A stretch of 43,075 nucleotides of DNA. It comes from a virus. This document shows, one piece after another, positions 24,777-41,354 of this stretch (position 1 is the stretch's first letter; each line of letters begins with the position of its first letter). The DNA is taken from positions 1-43,075 of the IMG/VR virus record IMGVR_UViG_3300002461_000205; one strand, written 5' to 3'. The notes under the pieces are model-generated. The model worked only from the letters and a program-made list of their open reading frames with translations, ran no database searches and was not told the origin of the DNA. The translations under genes were made by a program, and so were the position numbers.

Positions 24777-24809
24777 CGTTCTGACTCCGTTCTGACGTCC
24801 CGTTCTGAC
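24777..24809 (+). repeat. Three direct CGTTCTGAC repeats (24777-85, 24788-96, 24801-09): candidate integrase arm-type binding sites.
   Basis: Read directly from the sequence. A degenerate fourth copy (CGTTCTAC) lies at 24812-19. Inverted copies lie left of the core: GTCAGAACG at 24688-96, and CAGAAC-containing sites in 'ccagaacgg', 'gcagaac' and 'gtcaggaacg'. Confidence 0.6.
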
Positions 24810-24815
24810 CGCGTT

Positions 24816-26087
24816 CTACTCGTTTTCCTTTCTGAATTTCGTCCTCGCCTGCGCCAGTGCAGATTTGCGCCGCGTGCTTTTGCTCCTGATGTAGCTCGCC
24901 GTCATTGCGGGCGTGGCGTGCGTCAGATGCTCCTGGATCGCTGCGATATCCGCCCCGGCTTCATCAGCCTCAGTGGCCCCGCCAGCTCTAGCGTCCATGT
25001 TCCAGACGTTATCCGGGATTTCCGCTTTCCGTGCGAGCTTGCGAAACTTCTTCTGAAATCTCCTGTCACCGATCGGCAAACCATCGTGGCCCAGCACCAT
25101 CGCGCCTTCGCGCTCGTGCATCGGTACGGATTCTAACAGCGGAAACAGCAGGGGGTAGTCCTGCAAATCAAAAACCGTAGCCGCTCGCGTCTTGCTGGTT
25201 TTTATCCTGAGCTTCCAGCCGGGAATGTTATCCCACCTGAAAACCCCCAACCACATTTTCCCCTTACCGTTATAGACCGCTTGCGGCGTGTTCAATTTCG
25301 CTTGCGTCCACTCCCCGATAATATCTTTCTGCCTGAGCATCAGCTCGAATTGTGCGGCGACGGCTATAGCCATGTCGCGCTCATTGTCTTCAAGGGCCAC
25401 GCGAACGAATGCCACGGCTTGCTGATAGGTTAGTTCTTCTGTGCGCGATCCGGGCCTCTCAAACCTAACGTTTGCAAGCATCCCGACGAAGCGGGCGCAC
25501 TCTTCATATCCGAGCGCAGCACCGAACCGGCAGATCATCCGCACCATCGCGATTGCGTCGTGCGCTCGCTTTATCCTGCGGGGCGACTCTTCCTTCGCGG
25601 GCTCGGCCCAATTCCGAAACCATCTCTTTGCATCAATAATTGAACACTTCCGCACCTGTCTTTGTGCTATTGTGCCTTCAATGATCTTGAGGCTATCGAC
25701 GTAGAAGTCCTGCGTGTTCTTCTTGACGGTTTGAAACGAGGATTCCGGGTGCGATTGAAACACGCGCGAGAGGCTGAGAAACGAGCCGTCGTAATTTGTT
25801 TTCAGAAGTTCGCCGGCATCACCCCTGCCGAGCCAAGCCATGAGACGGGCAGTGTGCCTGAGACAAAGCTCTACGATTTCCTCATCGTCGGAATCGTTCG
25901 GTAATTTGATGGTTTTGTCCGGGTAGTTTTTTGTGTCTCTAACTACGTTCGCCGCCACCCAATAATGAGCAGTTGAACCATCACCGCGAGGACGCGATTT
26001 GTAGCCGGGGCGGGTGCTTTTGAGGGGCATCGAAGGACTCGGGGCCGTCTTCTGCGTGAGGTCTAGCATCGTTCGACACTCCTTCAT
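24816..26087 (-). CDS. int: Tyrosine recombinase (phage integrase).
   Basis: 423-aa ORF. The C-terminal catalytic region 'WNMDARAGGATEA...IQEHLTHATPAMTASYIR' carries the R...H...Y pattern. It is adjacent to attP. The exact start is uncertain (26087, 26069 or 26030). Confidence 0.85.
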   Translation of the reverse strand: MKECRTMLDLTQKTAPSPSMPLKSTRPGYKSRPRGDGSTAHYWVAANVVRDTKNYPDKTIKLPNDSDDEEIVELCLRHTARLMAWLGRGDAGELLKTNYDGSFLSLSRVFQSHPESSFQTVKKNTQDFYVDSLKIIEGTIAQRQVRKCSIIDAKRWFRNWAEPAKEESPRRIKRAHDAIAMVRMICRFGAALGYEECARFVGMLANVRFERPGSRTEELTYQQAVAFVRVALEDNERDMAIAVAAQFELMLRQKDIIGEWTQAKLNTPQAVYNGKGKMWLGVFRWDNIPGWKLRIKTSKTRAATVFDLQDYPLLFPLLESVPMHEREGAMVLGHDGLPIGDRRFQKKFRKLARKAEIPDNVWNMDARAGGATEADEAGADIAAIQEHLTHATPAMTASYIRSKSTRRKSALAQARTKFRKENE

Positions 26088-29755: not shown

Positions 29756-30118
29756 TTATTCGTACCTTGCTGGAACGATTTCACCGTTGAACTTGCGGTA
29801 GCCCATCTTTCGCTTCTTCGATTTGATCCCTAGGTGATTTAACCGGCGCTCGTAGATCGCGCTTTTCTCAGCAACGTCCTCTGCGGTCTTTTGCTTGTGG
29901 TGTTTGGCCAGCAATGTTCTGAGGTTTTTTTCACGGTTCTCTCCACCATTAGCGATTGCGACCGTGTGATCTGTTTCCCACTTGTCACCAACGCGGATCA
30001 GTGTCGTACAACCGCACTGGCATCTGCCGCCGTCCCGATCGAATACGCGCAAGCGAACGCGAGGAGGGATTTGCGTGTCAGGGCTTGCGCCGCGCCATTC
30101 AACCACGCTCCTAGCCAT
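29756..30118 (-). CDS. HNH endonuclease.
   Basis: 'GGRCQCGC...WETDHTVAIANGGENREKNLRTLLAKHHKQKT' is a classical HNH motif with a Cys-rich finger. Start probably at ATG 30118 (MARSVVEW). Confidence 0.8.
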   Translation of the reverse strand: MARSVVEWRGASPDTQIPPRVRLRVFDRDGGRCQCGCTTLIRVGDKWETDHTVAIANGGENREKNLRTLLAKHHKQKTAEDVAEKSAIYERRLNHLGIKSKKRKMGYRKFNGEIVPARYE

Positions 30119-30698
30119 GTGAGATGGCCTCCGCATCGCTCTTGCCTGCGTCGAGTCGTCCAAGAATTGTTGCGTGCGGGATTCCAGTTATCACCGCCGC
30201 TTGAGCGACAGTGACCACCTCGCCGTGAACGCAAAGAAAACGATTGAATGAGCGGTTATTGTTCTGCTCTGCTGCCGTTGCCCATCGGCAATTGCCTGGC
30301 TCGTAATTTCCATTGCTGTCGATGCGATCTAACGAATGCGCTGGAGACGGCTTGCGACCTAGGTCGGAAATAAAGGCATCAAACGAGATCGCCCACGCAG
30401 CGCACATCGTGATCCCGCGTCCGCCATAAAGCGGGTACTTCCGGTTCTGTGGGTTGCGGCAGCGGCTGCGCGCATTATCCCACGCCTTGTATTCGGGAGT
30501 TCGCGACAGCCCGTGAGTTTTCTTGGCTCCCTTAACGCATCCGCACGCGACAGAGTCGCCTCTTTTTAGGTGGCCTGCATACTTGGTTGTCTTATTTCCA
30601 CAATCACAGATACACACCCAATAGAACCCGCGCCGTCCGTCGACGCGCACTTCGCGAACGAGGGTTAAGCGATTTATTTTCATCCCAGCGTACAACAT
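30111..30698 (-). CDS. HNH_3-like protein with a degenerate 'DRID' motif and an N-terminal Cys cluster.
   Basis: 'YWVCICDCG...VACGC' is followed by 'YGGRGITMCAAWAISFDAFISDLGRKPSPAHSLDRIDSNGNYEPGNCRWATAAEQNNN'. The ATG at 30698 overlaps the upstream TAA. A paralog is at 41351..41770. Confidence 0.55.
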   Translation of the reverse strand: MLYAGMKINRLTLVREVRVDGRRGFYWVCICDCGNKTTKYAGHLKRGDSVACGCVKGAKKTHGLSRTPEYKAWDNARSRCRNPQNRKYPLYGGRGITMCAAWAISFDAFISDLGRKPSPAHSLDRIDSNGNYEPGNCRWATAAEQNNNRSFNRFLCVHGEVVTVAQAAVITGIPHATILGRLDAGKSDAEAISHG

Positions 30699-31033
30699 TA
30701 GCGAACGCGCTCCGCAGCTCTGGCGTTGGCGTTTGTCGATCGCCACACCTCAATTATCATTTCAGCGGCGCGAACCCGTGCGCGGTGCCGCTCATGCTCA
30801 AATATCGCCTCAGATTCCGCGTCTTGCAGTTTCTTGTAGAGGTCGTGGCATTCAACGCTTGCTTCTCGATCCCTGACGGTGCCGCCGTTTGTGCCGCGAT
30901 ACAGCTCCGCAAACTTCGCCTTGCGCGCGTTCTCCGCGTCCGTGACCGCCTTACGGGCAACGGCCACGGGGTGAGGATCGTCCGCGAGGTATGCGAGCGC
31001 TTTAGAAACCGTATCGTCGGCAACAATGCTCAT
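30698..31033 (-). CDS. Hypothetical helical protein.
   Basis: 111-aa ORF, coupled at both ends. Confidence 0.5.
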   Translation of the reverse strand: MSIVADDTVSKALAYLADDPHPVAVARKAVTDAENARKAKFAELYRGTNGGTVRDREASVECHDLYKKLQDAESEAIFEHERHRARVRAAEMIIEVWRSTNANARAAERVR

Positions 31034-31326: not shown

Positions 31327-31892
31327 GCTGCTTTTCCTTGTTGTGTTGATGCGGCTAGGGCCGCGCTTTTTAGTCCTGCGTGATGATCTGAAAGTTCGCC
31401 GCGTTCCTGGATTGAGCGATCGAGGTACCAAGCCTTGTAGGCATCGACGCCTTTGGCGGCTTCGGCGCGGGCTACATCCAACAGGGTGACTGGCAGTTCT
31501 GGGGGCGCAGACTTCTTGAAGTCGTCTGCCTCATCCTCGGAATAGGCGAGCCCGTGAATGCCGATTAGTTTGAGAACAACGCGATCTTTTGCGCGCTTCT
31601 CGGCCATTGCGAACGGATAAGCGTTCTTGTTGTTGGCGGGGGCAGCCTCACCAATGGACCACTCGCTTGCATCGCCCATGCGGCCAGTGACGCAGATGGC
31701 CGCGACCTTGTGCGCGCCGTCTGCTTCCAAAACCAGCGGGGCCTCAAACTTGATGCCGGCCTTCGCCGCGATCTGCTCAAGCACGCGGTGATAAATCACC
31801 CACGTTCCGTGACAGTCCCACGCGGCATCGGGGCCGAAGCCGTGCTTCTTGAGTGCCTCGACAACCTTGGGGTCGATCTGTTTCTTACTCAC
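31323..31892 (-). CDS. Putative single-strand annealing protein (Rad52/Sak-like).
   Basis: 'NAYPFAMAEKRAKDRVVLKLIGIHG' resembles the Rad52-type helix-hairpin motif (from memory). It sits between the exonuclease and the SSB-tail gene. Confidence 0.45.
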   Translation of the reverse strand: MSKKQIDPKVVEALKKHGFGPDAAWDCHGTWVIYHRVLEQIAAKAGIKFEAPLVLEADGAHKVAAICVTGRMGDASEWSIGEAAPANNKNAYPFAMAEKRAKDRVVLKLIGIHGLAYSEDEADDFKKSAPPELPVTLLDVARAEAAKGVDAYKAWYLDRSIQERGELSDHHAGLKSAALAASTQQGKAA

Positions 31893-32629
31893 GCCGCCAA
31901 CTCCCTCAATTTTTCACTTGCCGCTATGCTCCAGCGGAAATCATCGTCGTTCATCGGAAGCGACCGGATCGCTGCCTTCGGATCGGTATGGCTGTTTAAG
32001 AACGCTTGCAGGGACAGCGCGTCACGACGCATGGACTCAAGCGATGAAGCGCATAGTTCTTCCGAGATCGGGTAATGAGCGGATTTCTTCGCGGTCACGT
32101 AGAGAAGCGAGCCCGCACAATTCCTCCCCGCCATATAGAGCGCGACTTGTCTTGCGTGATCGGCCTTAGGTTCTGACGGGCAAGCCTTCGTGGTTTTCAG
32201 ATCGAAGATCGAGCCGTCTTCCAGAATGAAATCTATGAAGCCGATAACGGGGACTTCAACGTCTTGGAAAACGTGCTCGACTCTTGCCTGCGCTCCGAAG
32301 TAGGGGGCCGATAAATGCTCTGTGGCTTTAACCGCCATATCGAGCATGGGAGCAATGTTGGTTCGCTCTGCTTCCGTGCTATCATCGGCTAGGCCTTGGG
32401 CTTCTTTCTCGAAGGCCTCCAATGCAAGCGCGTAAGCCGCATCACCGTCTTTCTTGATGAACCAAGATTGCAAGCCCTTCTCGACCGCGTTCCCGCGCCA
32501 TGCCGCCGCGCCAGCTTGGTCAAAGAATTTCCCAAGGTAGCGAAGGCTCCACAGCCCCGGCGCATTGCGCCAGAGGTTGAGCGAAGATGGGGAAAGACGC
32601 TCGATACCAAATCGTTGAAATCCGTTCAT
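31889..32629 (-). CDS. PD-(D/E)XK (Cas4/RecB-like) exonuclease.
   Basis: 'VIGFIDFILEDGSIFDLKTTK...HARQVALY' gives the D...D/E-x-K...Q-x-x-x-Y pattern of phage recombination exonucleases. Confidence 0.65.
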   Translation of the reverse strand: MNGFQRFGIERLSPSSLNLWRNAPGLWSLRYLGKFFDQAGAAAWRGNAVEKGLQSWFIKKDGDAAYALALEAFEKEAQGLADDSTEAERTNIAPMLDMAVKATEHLSAPYFGAQARVEHVFQDVEVPVIGFIDFILEDGSIFDLKTTKACPSEPKADHARQVALYMAGRNCAGSLLYVTAKKSAHYPISEELCASSLESMRRDALSLQAFLNSHTDPKAAIRSLPMNDDDFRWSIAASEKLRELAA

Positions 32630-32877
32630 GCCGCAGCCTTCTGCTTATGCGCGGCAAGGAATTTACCGATCTTCGCCATTGCGATTTCAAGAACGAATAA
32701 TTCAACAGGACCAACAGTCAGATCGTTGTGAGCATCCAGTTGGAGGATTTCTTCGGCACCGTTGCAGATATCCAGCGTGGTGCGCTCGAACAAAACCTGT
32801 TGCTGCTCATCGAAGCGCATTGCTTCAAATTCGCTTTGACGGTCTTGTTCGATCTGGAATTGGTTGGATATGCTCAT
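32626..32877 (-). CDS. Hypothetical acidic protein.
   Basis: The internal ATG at 32877 overlaps the upstream stop (ATGA). Sequence begins MSISNQFQIEQDRQSEFEAMRF. Confidence 0.45.
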   Translation of the reverse strand: MSISNQFQIEQDRQSEFEAMRFDEQQQVLFERTTLDICNGAEEILQLDAHNDLTVGPVELFVLEIAMAKIGKFLAAHKQKAAA

Positions 32878-33332
32878 TTCATTTCTCCCAAAGCGAGCGG
32901 CCAATCTACTTTCCCTGTTTGCAGGAAATGCTTGGTGCAGGAGACGGCTTGATTGAGGGTGATATTTTTCCAAGAACCAATAAGCGCGACCGGACAAAAT
33001 AGTTCGCTCAAAGCATCCGATGCGCGCTGAACACCATATGACCAGCCCACAGGGAGAAGTTCAGAAAGTCGCCCGTCCTTGCGAGCCAGCAGGTCCATAG
33101 TTCCGGCGATGCACCCAACCGTTCCACACCACGGCGTGGCGCGATGTTCTAAGTCAGTGTATTCGTGCGGGTTATCGAAGGACGATTCACCGAGATAGGC
33201 GTCCATCGCGAACAGATGTTTCTCCGGCAGCTTTCCTTGCTCGCCTTCTGATACGAAACGAGAAAGATATTCGTGTTCAATTTCTCTAATGCCGAGTTCT
33301 TGCGCGGTCTTGTAAGGAGTTCTAGCGAGCAT
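32874..33332 (-). CDS. Hypothetical protein.
   Basis: 152-aa ORF containing 'TPWCGTVGCIAGT'. Confidence 0.5.
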   Translation of the reverse strand: MLARTPYKTAQELGIREIEHEYLSRFVSEGEQGKLPEKHLFAMDAYLGESSFDNPHEYTDLEHRATPWCGTVGCIAGTMDLLARKDGRLSELLPVGWSYGVQRASDALSELFCPVALIGSWKNITLNQAVSCTKHFLQTGKVDWPLALGEMK

Positions 33333-33654: not shown

Positions 33655-34028
33655 TCTGCGGCCTCCAGTAATTCCTGTTTGACAGGACGCTCAGCCCTCA
33701 TCACTTCATCTACAAAGATGGGGCTTTCAACATTACAGTTGAGATATTCTGTGAGAGTGATTGCTTCTCGATCACCGTAACCACGTTCGTCATGGTATTT
33801 TTCGGTTAGGCGGGCTTCTTCGATCTTCGTCCACTCGTATTCAAAGTCGTGCTTCGCGCAATAACCGCGAGGAACATCGAAGGCTGTACGCTCAATCAAC
33901 ATCACGTAGTTGATCGGGTCGTCTTTGTGCTGAGAGCAAATTTCCTTTGCAGCCTCGCTCACGCTTTTGAAAATGAGTAACGTGTCCTCATTATCTACTT
34001 GTAGCTTGATGATGATTTCGGGAGACAT
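33651..34028 (-). CDS. Hypothetical acidic protein.
   Basis: 125-aa ORF in the coupled operon. Confidence 0.5.
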   Translation of the reverse strand: MSPEIIIKLQVDNEDTLLIFKSVSEAAKEICSQHKDDPINYVMLIERTAFDVPRGYCAKHDFEYEWTKIEEARLTEKYHDERGYGDREAITLTEYLNCNVESPIFVDEVMRAERPVKQELLEAAE

Positions 34029-34940
34029 TTACGCGGCCTCCAGCGGAGCAAGTTCGAGCCACTTTGCTCCCGGTACTTTCATGTCGATCAGGATTTGCAC
34101 GACGCCTTCGGCAAAATCCGATAGGATTTTGTCGCGAGCCGCAGCCGCAGCCGCATCCGCAGCCGCATCCGCATACGCAGCCGCATCCGCAGCCGCATAC
34201 GCAGCCGCATCCGCAGCCGCATACGCAGCCGCATACGCATCCGCATACGCAGCCGCATCCGCATACGCAGCCGCATCCGCATACGCAGCCGCATACGCAT
34301 CCGCAGCCGCATACGCAGCCGCATCCGCAGCCGCATACGCAGCCGCATACGCAGCCGCATACGCAGCCGCATCCGCATACGCAGCCGCATCCGCAGCCGC
34401 AGCCGCATACGCAGCCGCATCCGCATACGCAGCCGCATCCGCAGCCGCAGCCGCATACGCAGCGTTTGCTACTTTTCGTGCCGCCAATGCGGCTTCGCGC
34501 GTTCCCTCTTTCTCGCAACGGTTGGCCGCTTCGCAAAGAGCGGCCTTGTGCTTTTCATCTTTCTGACAAGATGCTGCTGCACGAAGGGCGATAGGAACTG
34601 CCGTGGTAATCGAGAGTTTTGCTACGCGCTTTGCAAATTCGGTATCGTCAAGAGTGTCGCGCGACCCGAGTTGGATAAGGGCAAGACGGCGCAAACCTTT
34701 TGCTCGCGCTGCATCGCTTGACCAGCGAGAATCGTTCAGACGGATTTTTAGTTTGCGAAGGGCGCGTGAGACACATTGCGGGTCGTCGCCATGCGGAAGA
34801 CCGAGCGCGTAACAAACCGCCGCTTCAACACACATAAATCCCGGCTTAGGCTTACCCGCGCCGCGAACTAGCCCCGCATCGACAACCGAAAGAACCTTTT
34901 CGGCAATTTCCTTGGTGATCTCTTGCTGTCCGCTCGTCAT
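34029..34940 (-). CDS. Ala-(Ala/Tyr/Asp) repeat protein; first gene of the leftward early operon.
   Basis: ATG at 34940 with an AGGAGAGAA RBS. The N-terminal domain ('GFMCVEAAVCYALGLPHGDDPQCV...LNDSRWSS') is followed by 109 residues made only of A, Y and D, then a short C-terminal domain. Confidence 0.7.
   Translation of the reverse strand: MTSGQQEITKEIAEKVLSVVDAGLVRGAGKPKPGFMCVEAAVCYALGLPHGDDPQCVSRALRKLKIRLNDSRWSSDAARAKGLRRLALIQLGSRDTLDDTEFAKRVAKLSITTAVPIALRAAASCQKDEKHKAALCEAANRCEKEGTREAALAARKVANAAYAAAAADAAAYADAAAYAAAAADAAAYADAAAYAAAYAAAYAAADAAAYAAADAYAAAYADAAAYADAAAYADAYAAAYAAADAAAYAAADAAAYADAAADAAAAAARDKILSDFAEGVVQILIDMKVPGAKWLELAPLEAA
34137..34463. repeat. Hexanucleotide tandem array built from GCAGCC, GCATCC and GCATAC (on the + strand).
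   Basis: Read directly from the sequence. About 327 bp. All six frames are open here, which explains the cluster of overlapping track ORFs. Confidence 0.95.
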
Positions 34941-34972
34941 TCGTTCTCTCCTAATCTTGTAGGAGGAGACTA

Positions 34973-35020
34973 ATCCAGAAAACTTGGATAGGTCAAGCAC
35001 GAAATCCAACAAAGATGGAT
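34973..35020. promoter_or_regulatory. Two ATCCA-N7-TGGAT palindromes (34973-89 and 35004-20): candidate left operators overlapping the leftward early promoter.
   Basis: 'ATCCAgaaaactTGGAT' and 'ATCCAacaaagaTGGAT', with centres 31 bp apart. A TTGACC -35-like element on the minus strand lies between them. They sit immediately upstream of the first leftward gene. Confidence 0.6.
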
Positions 35021-35241: not shown

Positions 35242-35433
35242 ATGCCCACACCAGTGTCGCTTCAGCGTTACGCAATTCAGATTGTTTCAAAGCTGCCAGA
35301 GGGTGAGGACGCCCGGAAAATCCTGCTTCACGCCCTCGATATGGTGGACGCCTTATTGGAAGGCGAGCGCACGGAGCGGGCAGCCCGCCCGGCCCTAACC
35401 TTGGTCCGAACCGATCGGGTGGGGGATTCCTGA
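35242..35433 (+). CDS. Hypothetical 63-aa protein in the immunity region.
   Basis: Very strong RBS 'AAGGAGGggaccccATG'. Sequence begins MPTPVSLQRYAIQIVSKLPEGEDARKILLHALDMVDALLEGER. It is convergent with the repressor ORF and overlaps its 3' end by 106 nt. Confidence 0.55.
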   Translation: MPTPVSLQRYAIQIVSKLPEGEDARKILLHALDMVDALLEGERTERAARPALTLVRTDRVGDS

Positions 35434-35729
35434 CTACCGGCCTCTTTCTCGGCTCGCGCCAGATCGCGCTGCATAGCCACGGAGAGGCTGGATTTATCGC
35501 CTAGATAGAGAAAGTCGAGGGTAAGGCCCTCAAAGGTCTCTACGAGCCTGACGGCGTTATCTAGGCCGGGGCGGCCCTGTTTCTCGAAGTTGTTCCAGGT
35601 GGTGGGCTCTACACCGAGCCTTTTCGCGAAGTCTTTCGCGGGCTCCGGCTTGCCGGCCTGATCGCGCTCGCAAAAGGCGAGGCGGATAACCTTGACCCGC
35701 TGGCGGGCGTCTTCATCGCTGATCGGCAT
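35328..35729 (-). CDS. XRE/CI-type HTH repressor.
   Basis: 'DFAKRLGVEPTTWNNFEKQGRPGLDNAVRLVETFEGLTLDFLYLG' is an XRE-family HTH. It is divergent from the Cro-like gene, with operators between them. The C-terminal R/S-rich tail may be read-through into the shadow frame of the opposing ORF. Confidence 0.75.
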   Translation of the reverse strand: MPISDEDARQRVKVIRLAFCERDQAGKPEPAKDFAKRLGVEPTTWNNFEKQGRPGLDNAVRLVETFEGLTLDFLYLGDKSSLSVAMQRDLARAEKEAGSQESPTRSVRTKVRAGRAARSVRSPSNKASTISRA

Positions 35730-35762
35730 ATCGTTTCTTCACAAAATTTGGATTTTTTCGCC

Positions 35763-35803
35763 ATCCAAGAGAATTGGGCCTTGCAAATCCAAGAAAGATG
35801 GAT
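35763..35803. promoter_or_regulatory. Right operators: ATCCA-N7-TGGGC (35763-79, imperfect) and ATCCA-N7-TGGAT (35787-803), between the repressor and Cro-like genes.
   Basis: They use the same half-sites as the left operators. An extra TTGGAT half-site lies at 35748-53. Confidence 0.6.
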
Positions 35804-35819: not shown

Positions 35820-36056
35820 ATGACAAAAGTCCTAGAAACGACTGAAGCCGTAATCGATGCCGTAGGCGGGCCAGCCAAGGCAGCGGAGATTACTGGTCGT
35901 AAGTATTCGGCAGCGTGGAATTGGACGAAGGCCGAGACGTTCCCGGCTAACACTTACCTTCTGTTGAACGCGGCCATTTTAGAGAAGGGGTTCACGGCCC
36001 CGGCTCGTCTCTGGCGCATGGAAGAACCCGCTCTCGAAAACGAGGGCGGGCGATGA
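35820..36056 (+). CDS. Cro-like small DNA-binding protein.
   Basis: 78 aa starting at ATG 35820 (GTG 35817 is also possible). 'AVGGPAKAAEITGRKYSAAWNWTK' is HTH-like. It is the first rightward gene after the operators. The track start at 35748 would include the operators. Confidence 0.6.
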   Translation: MTKVLETTEAVIDAVGGPAKAAEITGRKYSAAWNWTKAETFPANTYLLLNAAILEKGFTAPARLWRMEEPALENEGGR

Positions 36057-38111: not shown

Positions 38112-38521
38112 GCCCTCGCATCAAGAAACCCCAGAATTTCGACACCGAGGCGGGCCTTCACCGCTTCACGCATCAGTTATTGAAACTGACTGGTTTCGCA
38201 AACATTCAATTCCTTCATATCCCGAACGGGCTTCAGCGCGCTCCAAGAGTCGCCGCGATGCTCAAGGGAATGGGCGCAAAGAATGGTGCGGCAGATTTCT
38301 TGGTGATCGTAAAAGGCAAAGCTAACTGGCTCGAACTAAAAAACGGAAAGAAGGGAAAGCTATCTCCCGATCAAATCAATTTCCGTGACGAGGCTTTAAG
38401 AGCCGGTGCAAATTATATCGTCGCATCAAATCCCATGGAAGTAAGAACCGCGCTTTATCTATGGGGTGCGATCAATGTTTTACATGACACCGTATCTGAT
38501 CCTGTAGCGGGGGCGGCGTGA
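38108..38521 (+). CDS. VRR-NUC domain nuclease.
   Basis: 'GAKNGAADFLVIVKGKANWLELKNGKKGKLSPDQINFRDEALRAGANYIV' gives the D...E-x-K pattern of VRR-NUC. Confidence 0.7.
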   Translation: MSPRIKKPQNFDTEAGLHRFTHQLLKLTGFANIQFLHIPNGLQRAPRVAAMLKGMGAKNGAADFLVIVKGKANWLELKNGKKGKLSPDQINFRDEALRAGANYIVASNPMEVRTALYLWGAINVLHDTVSDPVAGAA

Positions 38522-39168
38522 GAAAAGAAACCCTCGCAGAAGGCATTGAACTCTACAACGCGGACTGCCGTGAGGTATTGCCTACGCTTGGGAAGGTGGA
38601 TGCAGTGGTTACTGATCCGCCTTATGGGATTGGGATCAATAAATCGAACCGTCTGTCTGTTTCTCGAGGCCATGGCGGCGAGTCGTGGGACGATAGGCCC
38701 GCCGATATTTCGTGGCTCCCACCTATGAATGTGCCGTCGATTGTCTGGGGTGGTAACTATTTCGATCTCCCGCCGACTCGCGCGCCACTAGTCTGGGACA
38801 AGAACAACGCGGGCCGCGATTTCGCTGACTTTGAGTTGGCGTGGACTAACCTGGATATGGTCGCGCGCCGCATCATCATGCGCCCGATGAATATGGATGG
38901 CGGCAAGCTGCACCCGACGCAGAAGCCGATCGAGGTCATGCGCTGGTGTGTAGGGTACTTGCCCGGTGCAGGGATGACCATCCTTGATCCATTCATGGGG
39001 AGCGGCACGACGGGCGTAGCAGCGGCAATGCTAGGTCATAGATTTATTGGCATCGAAATCTCAGAAAAGTATTTCGACATAGCCTGCAAGCGTATTTCAG
39101 AAGCGCTTAAGCAGCCTGATTTTTTCGTAGATAAGCCCAAGCCTGCAAAGCAGGAGGCATTACTATGA
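38518..39168 (+). CDS. DNA methyltransferase (beta-class N6A/N4C type, DPPY).
   Basis: Motif IV 'VVTDPPYG', 'HPTQKPIEVM', and motif I 'ILDPFMGSGTTGVAAAMLGHRFIGIEI'. Confidence 0.85.
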   Translation: MRKETLAEGIELYNADCREVLPTLGKVDAVVTDPPYGIGINKSNRLSVSRGHGGESWDDRPADISWLPPMNVPSIVWGGNYFDLPPTRAPLVWDKNNAGRDFADFELAWTNLDMVARRIIMRPMNMDGGKLHPTQKPIEVMRWCVGYLPGAGMTILDPFMGSGTTGVAAAMLGHRFIGIEISEKYFDIACKRISEALKQPDFFVDKPKPAKQEALL

Positions 39169-39275: not shown

Positions 39276-39769
39276 ACTTGGCGATTCAACGCGAACACAT
39301 CAAATCCCCGCAGGATCAACTTGCCAGCAAGAAGCGACTGGATGCGCTTTTCCGTAAGCCCCCGGTGATTCCAAGGGCAGAAACCGCGCAGATTTATACG
39401 TTCCGGTATCGGATTAAGCCGGTGTTTGTGGTCGATCCGAATGCTCCGCGCAGTCCGTGGCCTCGCGCTGAAGTCGGCGTGACCGTGCATGATGTTGTGA
39501 TGGCCGTTTCATCATACCTGGGTGTTACACCCATTGAGATTAAATCAGCACGGAGAACTGCTGAGACGCTTCGCCCTCGTATGATTTGCTACTACCTCGC
39601 GAAAGAATTGACGTTAGCATCGTACCCACAAATAGGGCGCATACTAGGTGGCCGAGACCACACGACAATAATGGCCGGCTACGAGAAGGCGAAGAAGAGA
39701 TTCGCGGAGGATGGAGTATTCGCAGCGGACATAAACACCATCCGCGCAAGGCTGGAGGGTGGGAATTGA
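39272..39769 (+). CDS. DnaA C-terminal (domain IV)-like DNA-binding protein.
   Basis: 'RRTAETLRPRMICYYLAKELTLASYPQIGRILGGRDHTTIMAGYEKAKKRF' parallels DnaA domain IV 'R..ARQIAMYL.RELT..S...IG..FGGRDHTTV.HA..KI'. Confidence 0.7.
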   Translation: MNLAIQREHIKSPQDQLASKKRLDALFRKPPVIPRAETAQIYTFRYRIKPVFVVDPNAPRSPWPRAEVGVTVHDVVMAVSSYLGVTPIEIKSARRTAETLRPRMICYYLAKELTLASYPQIGRILGGRDHTTIMAGYEKAKKRFAEDGVFAADINTIRARLEGGN

Positions 39770-40458
39770 GCAAAGACGCTCTCAACGCCGTAGTATCTGA
39801 AATTGAAGCCTGCGGGCTTACTGCTCGCGTCGAACATGGAGGGAAACACGACCGCGTATATTTCCCCGCCAAAACAGGCGAGCAGTTCTATGTAGTTCCC
39901 GTCTCTGGGTCGTGCAGCCGCGCCCCACTCAACGCCCGCTCCGATGTGCGTCGTATGCTCCGCGAGTCCGGCTTCGAGCCGACTAACGTCATTGATCTGC
40001 CGCGAATTTCCATGGCCGGGGGCGAGCCTGTTTGTAATTCGGTTGATATAGCGCGCCACTTCGGCAAGGCCCACAAAGACGTTCTGCGGTCGATCGATGG
40101 TTTATTGGACCAATTAGAGGCTGGGTTTAATCGGCGCAATTTTACGCCGATTGATTACCGGGACGATAGGGGCCGTCAGCAGCGCTGCTTTGAGCTTACG
40201 CGAGACGCATTCTCGCTGCTTGTCATGGGCTTTACGGGCTCGGCCGCGCTCAAGTGGAAGCTGGCCTATATCAACGCCTTTAACCGCATGGAGGCCGAGC
40301 TGCGTAGGATCGCAGCGGCATCGCCGGAACTTTTGCCCCGGCTAGAGAAAGTCGAAGGCGAACTCGCGGCGCTTATTGATCTATATGTCGAGCCGAAGAC
40401 CGAGCCGGGCTACATCTTTATTCGTGGCCATGTTCGCAAGAGGCGGGGGGCTGCCTAA
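39766..40458 (+). CDS. Rha-family phage regulatory protein.
   Basis: The TTG at 39766 overlaps the upstream TGA. 'VCNSVDIARHFGKAHKDVLRSIDGLL...NFTPIDYRDDRGRQQRCFELTRDAFSLLVMGFTGSAALKWKLAYINAFNRME' is the Phage_pRha pattern. Confidence 0.7.
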   Translation: MSKDALNAVVSEIEACGLTARVEHGGKHDRVYFPAKTGEQFYVVPVSGSCSRAPLNARSDVRRMLRESGFEPTNVIDLPRISMAGGEPVCNSVDIARHFGKAHKDVLRSIDGLLDQLEAGFNRRNFTPIDYRDDRGRQQRCFELTRDAFSLLVMGFTGSAALKWKLAYINAFNRMEAELRRIAAASPELLPRLEKVEGELAALIDLYVEPKTEPGYIFIRGHVRKRRGAA

Positions 40459-41354
40459 TGGCGCGTATTCGCTCGATCAAGCCGCACTTCTTCCGCCACG
40501 AAGGACTGTACGAGTCCGAGCGGGAAACGGGTCTGCCGTTGCGATTAGCCTTTGCCGGCCTCTGGACCGCCGCAGATCGCGAGGGCCGCTTCATCTGGTC
40601 CGCGCGCAACCTAAAACTCGATGCGTTGCCTTATGACGATGATGTGGACTTCGCACGCGTGCTTGACGCGTTGTGGTCGCGTGGCTCGATCAAGAAGTAC
40701 GTGGTCGATGGCAAGGAATACGGCTTCATCCCAAGCTGGCTAGATCATCAAGTCATCAACAACCGCGAAGCACCCTCTAACCTCCCAGAACCCAATGAAA
40801 CCAATACGTTGACGCGTGAGGCACGCGACGATGACGCGTCGGTCACGCCACTTAAGTCTGCACAAGCGGAAGGGAAGGGAAGGGAAGGGGAAAGGAAGGG
40901 AACGGATAAAGGAACGCGTGACGCGCGTTCGTCCGAGGTTTTGTTTGAAGACTTCTGGAGGGCCTATCCGAAACGCAAGGGCGCAAACCCGAGAAAGACC
41001 GCTCTGGCGGCTTTCCTGAAGGCGCTAAAGGTCGGAGAAGACCCGCAAGCGATCATTGCCGGCGCGAAGCGATGCGCCGTGGCGGAATCTGAAAACATCA
41101 ACACCAAATATATCCCGCAGGCGGTCAAATGGCTGCACGACGAGCGCTGGAAAGATTACAACGCTGCCGCGATAGCCAGCCTTCCATCGCGGGAAGAGCA
41201 GGAAAGGGCGTGGCGCTTTGCCTTGGATTACAAGGAACGCAAGGGCTTCTGGGATTTACGATCGCCAGAGCCAGGGTCACGCGACTGTAAAATCCCCCCG
41301 GAATTTATTGAGCAATGGAAAGCCGAGCGCGCGAAGCAAGGAGCCACTCCATGA
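40458..41354 (+). CDS. Putative replication initiation/replisome organiser protein.
   Basis: '[17 protein letters not shown]...[17 protein letters not shown]' and the C-terminal '[15 protein letters not shown]...[17 protein letters not shown]' are common in prophage replication-module proteins (from memory). Confidence 0.5.
40868..40902 (+). repeat. 35-nt uninterrupted polypurine tract with GGGAA repeats.
   Basis: 'ggaagggaagggaagggaaggggaaaggaagggaa', read directly from the sequence. It is flanked by ACGCG(T) motifs within 40811-40930. Confidence 0.9.

What the first reader, a model, noticed from the sequence alone, without database searches (positions are those of the whole stretch)
34029..34940. 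First leftward early gene encodes a 109-residue array made only of Ala, Tyr and Asp
Bases 34137-34463 are a tandem array of the hexamers GCAGCC, GCATCC and GCATAC. In the coding (minus) frame this reads as (Ala-X)n with X = Ala, Tyr or Asp, for example 'AAYAAAAADAAAYADAAAYAAAAADAAAY...'. The dominant period is A-A-A-[Y/D].

The array sits between a Cys-containing N-terminal domain ('GFMCVEAAVCYALGLPHGDDPQCV') and a short C-terminal domain.

The gene is the first one transcribed from the operator-controlled leftward promoter. In other phages that position is often occupied by anti-restriction or host-takeover functions (T7 Ocr is the classic case).

An all-Ala helix decorated with regularly spaced Asp and Tyr could act as a nucleic-acid mimic or a protein-trap surface (speculative). 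At the DNA level the array is also expected to be unstable by slippage, and so length-variable between relatives.
Basis: partly seen in the sequence, partly recalled or inferred. Interest (0 to 1): 0.65.

Follow-up and report, generated by a model that had tools for sequence, protein, structure and literature searches.

The report
Hypervariable Ala-Tyr-Asp arm in phage protein
An early gene of a temperate phage belongs to a very large, unnamed phage protein family in which a highly conserved domain is interrupted by a fast-changing run of alanine, tyrosine and aspartate made by DNA slippage; its function is unknown.

Summary
The minus-strand gene 34029-34940 (303 aa) contains, at 34137-34463, a perfect array of 54 x (KMT-GCG) plus GCT. 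Only four codons are used, giving 80 Ala, 16 Tyr and 13 Asp.

It is not an oddity of this phage. The flanking N-domain (about 160 aa, basic, with conserved Cys/His/Asp) and C-tail (about 35 aa) define a family of at least 1,757 clusters at 50% identity. The family has no Pfam, PHROG, NCBIfam, PADLOC or PDB match. Its only cultured member found is Caulobacter phage Cr30 gp001.

Nearly every member carries an Ala-rich insert at the same site:
- Length runs from about 1 to 183 aa.
- Unit period and codon set differ between lineages.
- Each array is internally codon-homogeneous.
- Arrays differ in length even where the flanking DNA is 100% identical.
- 57 of 138 related contigs end inside the array.

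Composition is filtered: Tyr and Asp are almost universal and Pro almost absent.

Best reading: a slippage-generated alpha-helical hairpin arm projecting from a conserved early-gene effector domain. DNA mimicry of the Ocr type is not supported as a family-wide property. Function remains inferred.

The parts
34029..34940 (-). Complete gene, 303 aa plus stop. It is a member of a large unnamed phage protein family (Cr30 gp001-like).
   Evidence: ORF list and sequence. More than 1,545 homologues found, a capped count. 1,757 clusters at 50% identity with E<=1e-3.
34464..34940 (-). N-terminal conserved helical domain, residues 1-159. It is basic (pI 9.5, net +9). Near-invariant residues are C37, H50, D52, C56, C142, the motif KI.LND..WSS and the motif RA.GLRRLA.
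   Evidence: Alignments A1-A4. AlphaFold2 pLDDT is about 85-95. Charge.
34137..34463 (-). In-frame hexanucleotide array of 54 x (KMT-GCG) plus GCT, encoding (X-Ala)n with X = A, Y or D (109 aa). Predicted helical at low confidence.
   Evidence: The single-stranded DNA folds into long imperfect hairpins, z = -3.6.
34029..34136 (-). Conserved C-terminal tail (residues 269-303, RDKILSDFAEGVVQILIDMKVPGAKWLEL...) plus the stop codon. It is modelled with high confidence together with the N-domain.
   Evidence: Invariant D270, L273, E278, V281, L284, P290, G291 and L295. pLDDT 94-97.
34967..34996 (-). Candidate leftward promoter: -35 TTGACC (34996-34991), an 18-nt spacer, then -10 TAGTCT (34972-34967). 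The Shine-Dalgarno sequence AGGAGAG lies at 34952-34946.
   Evidence: Read directly from the sequence. Inference only: the consensus scan did not report it.
34973..34989 (.). Operator-like palindrome ATCCAGAAAACTTGGAT, lying in the promoter spacer.
   Evidence: Three perfect copies in the window against 0.81 expected at up to one mismatch.
35004..35020 (.). Second operator-like palindrome, ATCCAACAAAGATGGAT, just upstream of the -35 element.
35787..35803 (.). Third copy of the same palindrome, in the divergent region between the HTH gene and the rightward genes.
35328..35729 (-). 133-aa HTH protein, the candidate repressor that would act on the palindromes.
   Evidence: Weak PHROG match to a transcriptional regulator (phrog_8, E = 8e-4). 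No Pfam hit. The role is inferred from position.

Best explanation
The gene encodes a stand-alone early phage accessory protein of a large, uncharacterised family.

Its working part is probably a compact, basic, all-helical domain built from the N-terminal ~160 residues plus the C-terminal ~35 residues. This domain carries a near-invariant Cys/His/Asp/Cys/Cys cluster, which I take to be a metal site or active site (inferred).

Between the last N-domain helix and the first C-tail helix sits an expandable insert: an in-frame GCN-rich microsatellite. Replication slippage or unequal recombination keeps lengthening, shortening and rewriting it (shown by comparison with relatives).

Selection filters the product only by composition. 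The insert is Ala-rich, almost free of Pro and Gly, and almost always studded with Tyr and Asp (shown). It therefore remains a soluble alpha-helical hairpin arm of arbitrary length projecting from the domain (inferred from AlphaFold2 and composition).

The most likely role of the arm is a generic acidic/aromatic interaction or shielding element. It would work with, or mask, the basic domain while that domain engages a conserved host or phage target early in infection (inferred, unproven).
For: **Array anatomy and non-chance nature**
-.

**Family size and conservation of the flanks**
- N-domain 60-86% identical across hundreds of phages while the neighbouring genes are not conserved.

**Same insertion site, different inserts**
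- 68 in-frame arrays of 11-127 aa among 109 loci.
- The linker between the domains runs from 1 to 183 aa (median 57) in 188 representatives.

**Recent local amplification**
- Each array uses essentially one Ala codon, for example GCC 79/79 or GCT 62/63.
- 85% of non-Ala codons share the third base of that Ala codon.
- The dominant period differs between lineages: 2, 3, 4, 5, 6, 7 or 8 residues.

**Length change at zero flank divergence**
- L033 and L052 differ by 78 nt.
- L094 differs from L097-L102 by 96 nt.
- In both cases the N-domain DNA is 100% identical.

**Slipped-strand potential**
- Single-stranded DNA fold of -100.6 kcal/mol, z = -3.6.

**Selection on composition**
- One-step neighbours of Ala: D 383, S 162, V 66, T 59, G 30, E 21, P 4.
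- The two-step neighbour Tyr is the commonest non-Ala residue, at 439.
- Y is present in 67 of 71 arrays, D in 66 of 71 and P in 2 of 71.

**Structure**
- N-domain and C-tail are modelled confidently.
- In the short-array homologue P0036 (pLDDT 87.5, pTM 0.84) the array is the tip of a helix-loop-helix.
- In the window protein the array is helical but pLDDT is only 40-60.

**Charge**
- Window N-domain +9, array -13.
- Across the family the N-domain is positive in 89% of members and the array negative in 76%, with rho = -0.30.

**Early-gene setting**
-.
Against: - No function is demonstrated. There is no homologue with known activity and no fold match: best PDB Foldseek E = 0.36, and the PDB sequence profile found nothing.
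- The array region has low AlphaFold2 confidence, so the helical hairpin is not established. The strict Ala-X alternation here would equally suit a beta-strand face (parity moment 1.00).
- Some family members have almost no array or an ordinary non-repetitive linker, so the arm may be dispensable.
- Residue counts are inflated by unit amplification and are not independent events.
- The charge correlation is weak and not corrected for phylogeny.
- Length differences between contigs with identical flanks could partly be assembly collapse.
Confidence: 0.45

Rival explanations
1. Neutral expandable filler. A GCN microsatellite became established in a surface hairpin that tolerates insertions. Mutation pressure from slippage keeps it there, and selection only removes variants that break the helix, aggregate or shift the frame. 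The array itself has no function.
For: - Length runs from about 1 to 183 aa with no preferred value, and the period is not conserved.
- Some members have nearly no array or a non-repetitive linker.
- Arrays are completely rewritten between close relatives, for example L076 and L080 at 96% N-domain DNA identity.
- Y/D alternation is not conserved across the family.
Against: - Tyr needs two substitutions from Ala, yet it is the commonest non-Ala residue and is present in 67 of 71 independently built arrays. Asp is present in 66 of 71.
- The transition-derived neighbours Thr and Val are several-fold rarer than Asp, which needs a transversion.
- An Ala-rich insert is kept in about 92% of representatives: 169 of 184 linkers have at least 35% Ala.
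- In about 1 Mb of related phage DNA such arrays occur only in this family.
Confidence: 0.3
2. Nucleic-acid mimic or anti-restriction decoy. The Asp/Tyr-studded helices would imitate DNA and trap restriction, RecBCD-like or other DNA-binding defence proteins, as T7 Ocr, ArdA or lambda Gam do.
For: - Early-gene position next to recombination and nuclease genes.
- The array here is acidic (net -13, pI 4.05).
- 76% of family arrays are net negative.
- Aromatic plus acidic residues are typical of DNA mimics (general knowledge).
Against: - Charge density is low, at -0.12 per residue here.
- 48 of 188 family arrays have net charge of zero or above, and some are Arg-rich or lack acidic residues.
- No conserved spacing of the acidic residues.
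- No Pfam, PADLOC or PHROG hit and no fold match to Ocr, ArdA or Gam.
- The strongly conserved part is the basic domain, not the array.
Confidence: 0.08
3. Slippage-diversified binding surface. The array would be a rapidly evolving paratope-like surface built on a Tyr/Asp/Ser/Asn-on-Ala alphabet that tracks variable host targets or escapes host sensors. It would be a diversity generator without a reverse transcriptase.
For: - Extreme turnover between close relatives.
- The alphabet is dominated by Y, D, S and N. These residues suffice for synthetic binding sites (my own knowledge of minimal Tyr/Ser/Asp/Ala antibody libraries, not tested here).
Against: - The arrays are low in information and quasi-periodic rather than forming specific surfaces.
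- Identical arrays persist across five independent contigs, L097-L102.
- There is no evidence of target specificity.
Confidence: 0.1
4. Assembly artefact. The array or its length would have been created or distorted by the assembler.
For: - 57 of 138 related contigs terminate inside the array.
- Two loci, L010 and L016, are frameshifted within the array.
- Any collapse by 6 nt would keep the frame.
Against: - The same architecture occurs in hundreds of independent assemblies, in a finished Devosia chromosome (L008) and in the cultured phage Cr30.
- Here the array lies in the middle of the contig, in frame with a conserved C-tail.
- Its longest exact internal repeat is 66 nt, which ordinary reads can resolve.
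- At most the exact copy number is uncertain.
Confidence: 0.04

Closest known systems
Caulobacter phage Cr30 gp001 (YP_009098759.1, hypothetical protein, 236 aa)
   Same: Same family. tblastn identity to the window N-domain is 57%, and it is the top BFVD fold hit, A0A067XQQ9, at E = 6e-13. It has the same N-domain motifs, an Ala/Tyr/Asp(/Arg) array (AARAAADAAAADAAYAAADAAYAAYAAAD...) and the same C-tail.
   Different: It comes from a 156-kb virulent T4-like phage, not a temperate one. Its array is shorter, with a period of 3-4 and different codons. It is equally uncharacterised.
Ser-Asp dipeptide repeat (R/SD) regions of staphylococcal Clf/Sdr surface proteins, and other in-frame VNTR stalks
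   Same: A dipeptide repeat encoded by short in-frame DNA units, variable in length between strains through slippage or recombination, and tolerated as a spacer-like module (comparison from my own knowledge).
   Different: Those are extended, cell-wall-spanning stalks of secreted bacterial adhesins that link two separate domains. Here the repeat is Ala-based, predicted helical and cytoplasmic, and it is an excursion whose two ends return to one globular domain.
Type I (alanine-rich, alpha-helical) fish antifreeze proteins
   Same: About 60% Ala, helical, decorated with a few polar residues, and built by amplification of GCC-type Ala codons with strong codon homogeneity (own knowledge; relevant papers were listed but not read).
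   Different: Antifreeze proteins have an 11-residue Thr periodicity and are secreted eukaryotic proteins. Here the period is 2 or 4 and is not conserved across the family, Tyr and Asp take the place of Thr, and the array is an insert in a conserved domain.
T7 Ocr / ArdA / lambda Gam DNA-mimic early proteins
   Same: An early phage gene, with an acidic helical element in this particular phage.
   Different: No sequence or fold similarity. Charge density is much lower and is not conserved in the family.
Diversity-generating retroelement (DGR) variable proteins
   Same: A localised hypervariable stretch within an otherwise conserved phage protein.
   Different: There is no template copy of the array anywhere in the window. 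Variation is in length and unit order, not in adenine-specific substitutions at fixed length.
TolA domain II ('membrane protein involved in colicin uptake', the name JGI gives to homologue P0083)
   Same: Ala-rich helical low-complexity composition, which probably caused that automatic name.
   Different: The name is a composition-driven mislabel. There is no membrane anchor, no TolA domains and no Pfam hit.

Membership tests
Unnamed Cr30 gp001-like phage family | N-domain with G.G.P.PG.MCVEAAV..A.GLPHGD.P.CV ... KI.LND..WSS..ARA.GLRRLA..QLGS ... C-E | tested here: met
   The window protein is 63-86% identical to family members over this domain, and the invariant columns are listed.
Unnamed Cr30 gp001-like phage family | Conserved C-tail RD..L..FAE.VVQ.LI.M.APG..WL.L, in frame after the insert | tested here: met
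   Window residues 269-298 match. 68 of 70 loci that have both parts are in frame.
Unnamed Cr30 gp001-like phage family | Ala-rich low-complexity insert between the two conserved parts | tested here: met
   109 aa here. The insert is present in nearly all members: pooled composition is 58% Ala, and Y and D occur in more than 90% of arrays.
Ocr/ArdA-type DNA mimics | Sequence or fold homology to Ocr, ArdA or another known mimic | tested here: not met
   No hits in Pfam, PHROG or PADLOC. No significant PDB or BFVD fold match outside the family itself.
Ocr/ArdA-type DNA mimics | Dense surface of acidic residues, conserved and arranged like DNA phosphates | tested here: not met
   13 Asp in 109 residues here. 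48 of 188 family arrays have net charge of zero or above, and the spacing is not conserved.
Ocr/ArdA-type DNA mimics | Inhibition of restriction or DNA-binding enzymes | not testable with these tools
   This needs an expression or binding assay.
DGR variable protein | A template repeat near-identical to the variable region, plus a reverse transcriptase | tested here: not met
   The array motif occurs nowhere else in the 43-kb window. No reverse transcriptase was seen among the ORFs scanned. Not all ORFs were scanned.
Type I antifreeze-like Ala-rich helix | 11-residue periodicity of Thr (or another ice-binding residue) on one helix face | tested here: not met
   Autocorrelation peaks fall at 4, 6, 12 and 16 and are negative at 11. 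There is no Thr.
Canonical heptad coiled coil | Conserved 7-residue hydrophobic periodicity | tested here: not met
   Period 7 is dominant in only 11 of 61 arrays; the others have periods of 2-8.

The most novel reading that the evidence does not exclude
The family is a widespread, so far unrecognised class of early phage effectors. A conserved basic metal-binding domain would be paired with a self-renewing Tyr/Asp-on-Ala helical arm. The arm would act as a nucleic-acid-like decoy, either masking the protein's own basic surface until it meets its target or plugging a host defence or repair enzyme. Microsatellite slippage would supply continual length and sequence diversity without any dedicated diversification machinery.
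Probability: 0.12. Interest if true: 0.8.

Novelty: new variant of a known kind. Interest (0 to 1): 0.5.

Why it matters
- **An unannotated major family.** At least 1,757 clusters at 50% identity, spread over temperate and virulent phages, mostly of Alphaproteobacteria, have no name, no domain model and no structure. A family conserved at 60-86% identity while its neighbouring genes are not conserved probably performs something important early in infection.
- **A natural experiment in low-complexity evolution.** Dozens of independently generated arrays converge on Ala plus Tyr plus Asp and exclude Pro. This is unusually clean evidence for selection on composition rather than on sequence.
- **A practical assembly problem.** The array is a systematic break point: 41% of related contigs end inside it, and it opens all six reading frames, which invites spurious gene calls. 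This affects phage genome completeness, binning and gene calling.
- **An experimental route.** Cr30 and Caulobacter offer a tractable system for testing function.

Tried and rejected
**Searches that found nothing**
- Pfam, PHROGs, NCBIfam and PADLOC on the full protein and on the N-domain gave nothing real. The only hit was a composition-driven one to DNA polymerase III tau.
- Pfam on 118 diverse family members gave nothing consistent.
- PDB sequence searches with a single sequence and with a profile gave nothing.
- Foldseek against PDB with the full model and with a compact short-array model gave only generic helical bundles, with vinculin tail as best hit at E = 0.36. BFVD returned only family members.
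- blastn of the region against cultured phages gave no match. tblastn against plasmids gave no match.
- A protein search with the array alone returned nothing, because low-complexity filtering removed it.
- Rfam found no RNA family in the window.
- Literature searches found nothing relevant.
- Exact-sequence look-up of the window protein, and exact 26-mer scans for near-identical genomes, found none. Micro-heterogeneity of this particular array therefore could not be examined.
- Cluster look-up gave no names or accessions.

**Ideas tested and dropped**
- DGR: rejected, because there is no template copy.
- A conserved partner gene: rejected, because neighbours are not conserved.
- Possible distant kinship of the N-domain with neighbouring small C..G...ND..W proteins (window 32874-33332 and an ORF in L094): hhalign was not significant.
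- Y/D alternation as a family rule: not conserved.

Full report
**1. The observation**

The minus-strand ORF 34029-34940 starts at ATG 34940, five bases after AGGAGAG, and encodes 303 residues. Residues 160-268 (window 34137-34463) contain only Ala (80), Tyr (16) and Asp (13).

It is 54 consecutive hexamers of the form KMT-GCG followed by GCT. Only four codons are used (GCG 54, GCT 26, TAT 16, GAT 13), and every second codon is GCG. Outside the array the same gene uses all four Ala codons.

TRF scores the array at 391-461, with periods 12, 18 and 48. It is by far the strongest tandem repeat in the window. A three-unit pattern matches 52 times, all inside the array, against 0 in shuffles.

Non-Ala residues are spaced mostly by 4, and Y and D largely alternate. 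All six frames are open across the array. Only the minus frame that continues into conserved flanks is real.

**2. What the gene is**

The window is a temperate phage or prophage. It contains:
- an integrase at 24816-26087;
- a leftward operon with a PD-(D/E)XK nuclease and an HNH endonuclease;
- a DNA methylase and a Rha regulator on the rightward side;
- a large terminase most similar, at 42%, to that of a Bradyrhizobium phage.

A 17-bp palindrome, ATCCA-N7-TGGAT, occurs exactly three times. Two copies lie at 34973-35020, directly upstream of the array gene. One of them fills the spacer of a candidate TTGACC-18-TAGTCT promoter. The third lies at 35787-35803, in the divergent region beside a 133-aa HTH gene. 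The promoter itself remains an inference, because the consensus scan did not report it.

**3. The family**

The protein has no hit in Pfam, PHROGs, NCBIfam (apart from a composition artefact) or PADLOC. Yet it has a very large number of unnamed relatives:
- More than 1,545 hits in a capped search, many on contigs of about 40 kb.
- With an N-domain profile, 1,757 clusters at 50% identity at E<=1e-3, of which 718 are at E<=1e-30.
- 205 confirmed stretches in IMG/VR.
- 28 loci in reference genomes, mostly Alphaproteobacteria such as Bradyrhizobium, Afipia, Devosia, Hyphomicrobium, Reyranella and Pseudolabrys. Assignments from MAG bins are less reliable.
- None on plasmids.

The only cultured phage carrying it is the virulent T4-like Caulobacter phage Cr30 (gp001, annotated as hypothetical).

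All members share two conserved parts. The first is an N-domain with motifs such as PGxMCVEAAV..A.GLPHGDDP.CV and KIxLND..WSS..ARAxGLRRLA. The second is a C-tail, RDxxLxxFAExVVQxLIxMxAPGxxWLxL. Across 118 diverse members the near-invariant residues include C37, H50, D52, C56 and C142 in window numbering. I read these as a possible metal site or active site. That is an inference.

Neighbouring genes are not conserved. The gene always lies among early, regulatory or DNA-metabolism genes. It therefore behaves as a self-contained module.

**4. The array across the family**

Among 109 loci, 68 carry an in-frame insert of 11-127 aa at the same position. Among 188 representatives, the linker between the two conserved parts runs from 1 to 183 aa, with a median of 57. 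The inserts differ in unit and alphabet:
- (AX)n with X = S, Y or D, or X = N, Y or I;
- AAX, AAAX, AAAAY and AAAAAD units;
- heptad-like AARAASY/AASDAAS units;
- some Arg/Ser-rich or His-rich versions.

Each array is nevertheless internally codon-homogeneous, for example GCC 79/79. In addition, 85% of non-Ala codons keep the third base of the array's own Ala codon. This is the signature of recent local amplification followed by point changes.

Direct evidence of instability:
- L033 and L052 have 100% identical N-domain DNA but differ by 78 nt in the array.
- L094 and L097-L102 have 100% identical N-domain DNA but differ by 96 nt.
- L076 and L080, at 96% identity, have unrelated arrays.
- Conversely, five independently retrieved contigs (L097, L099-L102) share an identical array, so arrays are not chaotic.

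The single-stranded array DNA can form long imperfect hairpins (z = -3.6). This is consistent with slipped-strand mispairing, an inference from general repeat biology.

Technically, 57 of 138 related contigs end inside the array, and two are frameshifted there. The array is therefore a systematic assembly break point. Copy numbers from short-read assemblies, possibly including this one, are uncertain. Here the longest exact internal repeat is 66 nt, so the array is resolvable in principle.

**5. Selection on the array**

Pooled composition is A 58%, Y 9.8%, D 8.7%, S 4.7%, G 1.3% and P 0.4%.

Among the single-step mutational neighbours of Ala, the counts are D 383, S 162, V 66, T 59, G 30, E 21 and P 4. 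Tyr, which needs two steps, is the most frequent non-Ala residue at 439.

Counted per array, to avoid inflation by amplification, Y is present in 67 of 71 arrays, D in 66 of 71 and P in 2 of 71.

Mutation pressure alone does not predict this pattern. The product is filtered for helix compatibility and for Tyr and Asp. No spatial pattern is conserved. Dominant periods range from 2 to 8, and Y/D alternation is specific to some arrays, including this one. In about 1 Mb of related phage DNA, such arrays occur only in this family.

**6. Structure**

- AlphaFold2 on the window protein gives pLDDT 77.7 and pTM 0.72. The N-domain and C-tail are confident and all-helical. The array is helical, but its pLDDT is only 40-60.
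- In a short-array homologue (P0036; pLDDT 87.5, pTM 0.84) the array forms the tip of a helix-loop-helix between the last N-domain helix and the C-tail helix.
- Neither model matches any solved structure. BFVD returns only family members.
- I could not obtain coordinates, so the packing of the C-tail and the clustering of the Cys and His residues are not verified.

**7. Mechanism**

Shown:
- an in-frame microsatellite insert;
- rapid turnover by length change;
- compositional selection;
- a conserved, basic flanking domain (pI 9.5, net +9; positive in 89% of members);
- an acidic array (net -13 here; negative in 76% of members);
- a weak inverse relation between the two charges (rho = -0.30, not corrected for phylogeny).

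Inferred: the array is an alpha-helical hairpin arm of arbitrary length. It acts as a generic acidic/aromatic interaction or shielding element for a basic, possibly metal-binding effector domain that serves an early-infection function.

Rivals:
- A neutral filler tolerated in a permissive hairpin. This is supported by members that nearly lack the array.
- An Ocr-like DNA mimic. This is weakened by low and non-conserved charge, with 48 of 188 arrays at net charge of zero or above.
- A slippage-diversified binding surface.
- An assembly artefact. Only the copy number is at risk.

**8. Comparison and novelty**

The general phenomenon is known: slippage-generated in-frame low-complexity modules occur in staphylococcal SD repeats and type I antifreeze proteins. 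I found no description of this family or of its Ala/Tyr/Asp insert in the domain libraries, in the structure libraries or in three literature searches. I therefore file it as a new variant of a known kind, inside an uncharacterised and very large phage protein family. Function is the open question. Cr30 and Caulobacter offer a tractable test system.

Noticed in passing
L029-L146, many loci (for example L030, L034, L041, L044, L117-L139): 57 of 138 related contigs from viral, genome and metagenome collections stop within about 450 nt after the N-domain or start just before the C-tail. Assemblies systematically break in this array. Many phage contigs of about 40 kb have it at one end.
   Followed up: partly
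window 33967-34594, both strands: All six reading frames are open across the array, giving spurious ORFs of 199, 181, 176 and 122 aa. The antisense frame also reads as an Ala/Ser/Tyr array, so gene callers could pick the wrong strand or frame.
   Followed up: partly
window 35242-35433 (+): A 63-aa plus-strand ORF with a strong Shine-Dalgarno sequence (AAGGAGGGGA) lies between the array gene and the HTH gene. It converges on the 3' end of the 133-aa HTH ORF (35328-35729, minus strand) and overlaps it. One of the two annotations may be wrong at that end.
   Followed up: no
window 34973-34989, 35004-35020, 35787-35803: There are three perfect copies of ATCCA-N7-TGGAT, with weaker half-site copies at about 35744-35777. 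They are probably the operators of the immunity switch. The annotated TTG start at 35748 of the rightward ORF probably lies too far upstream, since an ATG at 35821 follows the operator.
   Followed up: partly
window 24777-24821: Four copies of an 11-nt tandem repeat (CGTTCTGACTC) lie at the 3' end of the integrase gene (24816-26087, minus strand). They may be arm-type or attP-associated sites.
   Followed up: no
window 40806-40914: GGAAG-rich short tandem repeats and a 22-nt direct repeat lie inside the 298-aa ORF 40458-41354, which has no family match.
   Followed up: no
L004 (about position 282, minus strand) and L103 (about position 2908, plus strand): A second copy of the family gene (C-tail plus Ala/Tyr array) lies within a few kb of the first, so some phages or prophages carry paralogues.
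   Followed up: no
L010 and L016: In these two MAG loci the array is frameshifted and reads as poly-Pro/Ser/Thr or poly-Leu, while the C-tail is in another frame. This is probably a sequencing or assembly indel error, but real inactivation was not excluded.
   Followed up: no
P0207, P0212, P0172, P0246 and other divergent family members: About 8% of representatives (15 of 184) have a linker with less than 35% Ala, and those examined are ordinary, non-repetitive sequences, some rich in aromatic residues. They may show the ancestral state from which the microsatellite arose.
   Followed up: partly
window 31889-32629 and 30111-30746 (minus strand); 38518-39168 and 39586-40458 (plus strand): Other annotated functions in the window are a PD-(D/E)XK nuclease and an HNH endonuclease in the leftward operon, and an N6/N4 DNA methylase and a Rha-family regulator in the rightward operon. 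Most other early ORFs have no family match.
   Followed up: partly
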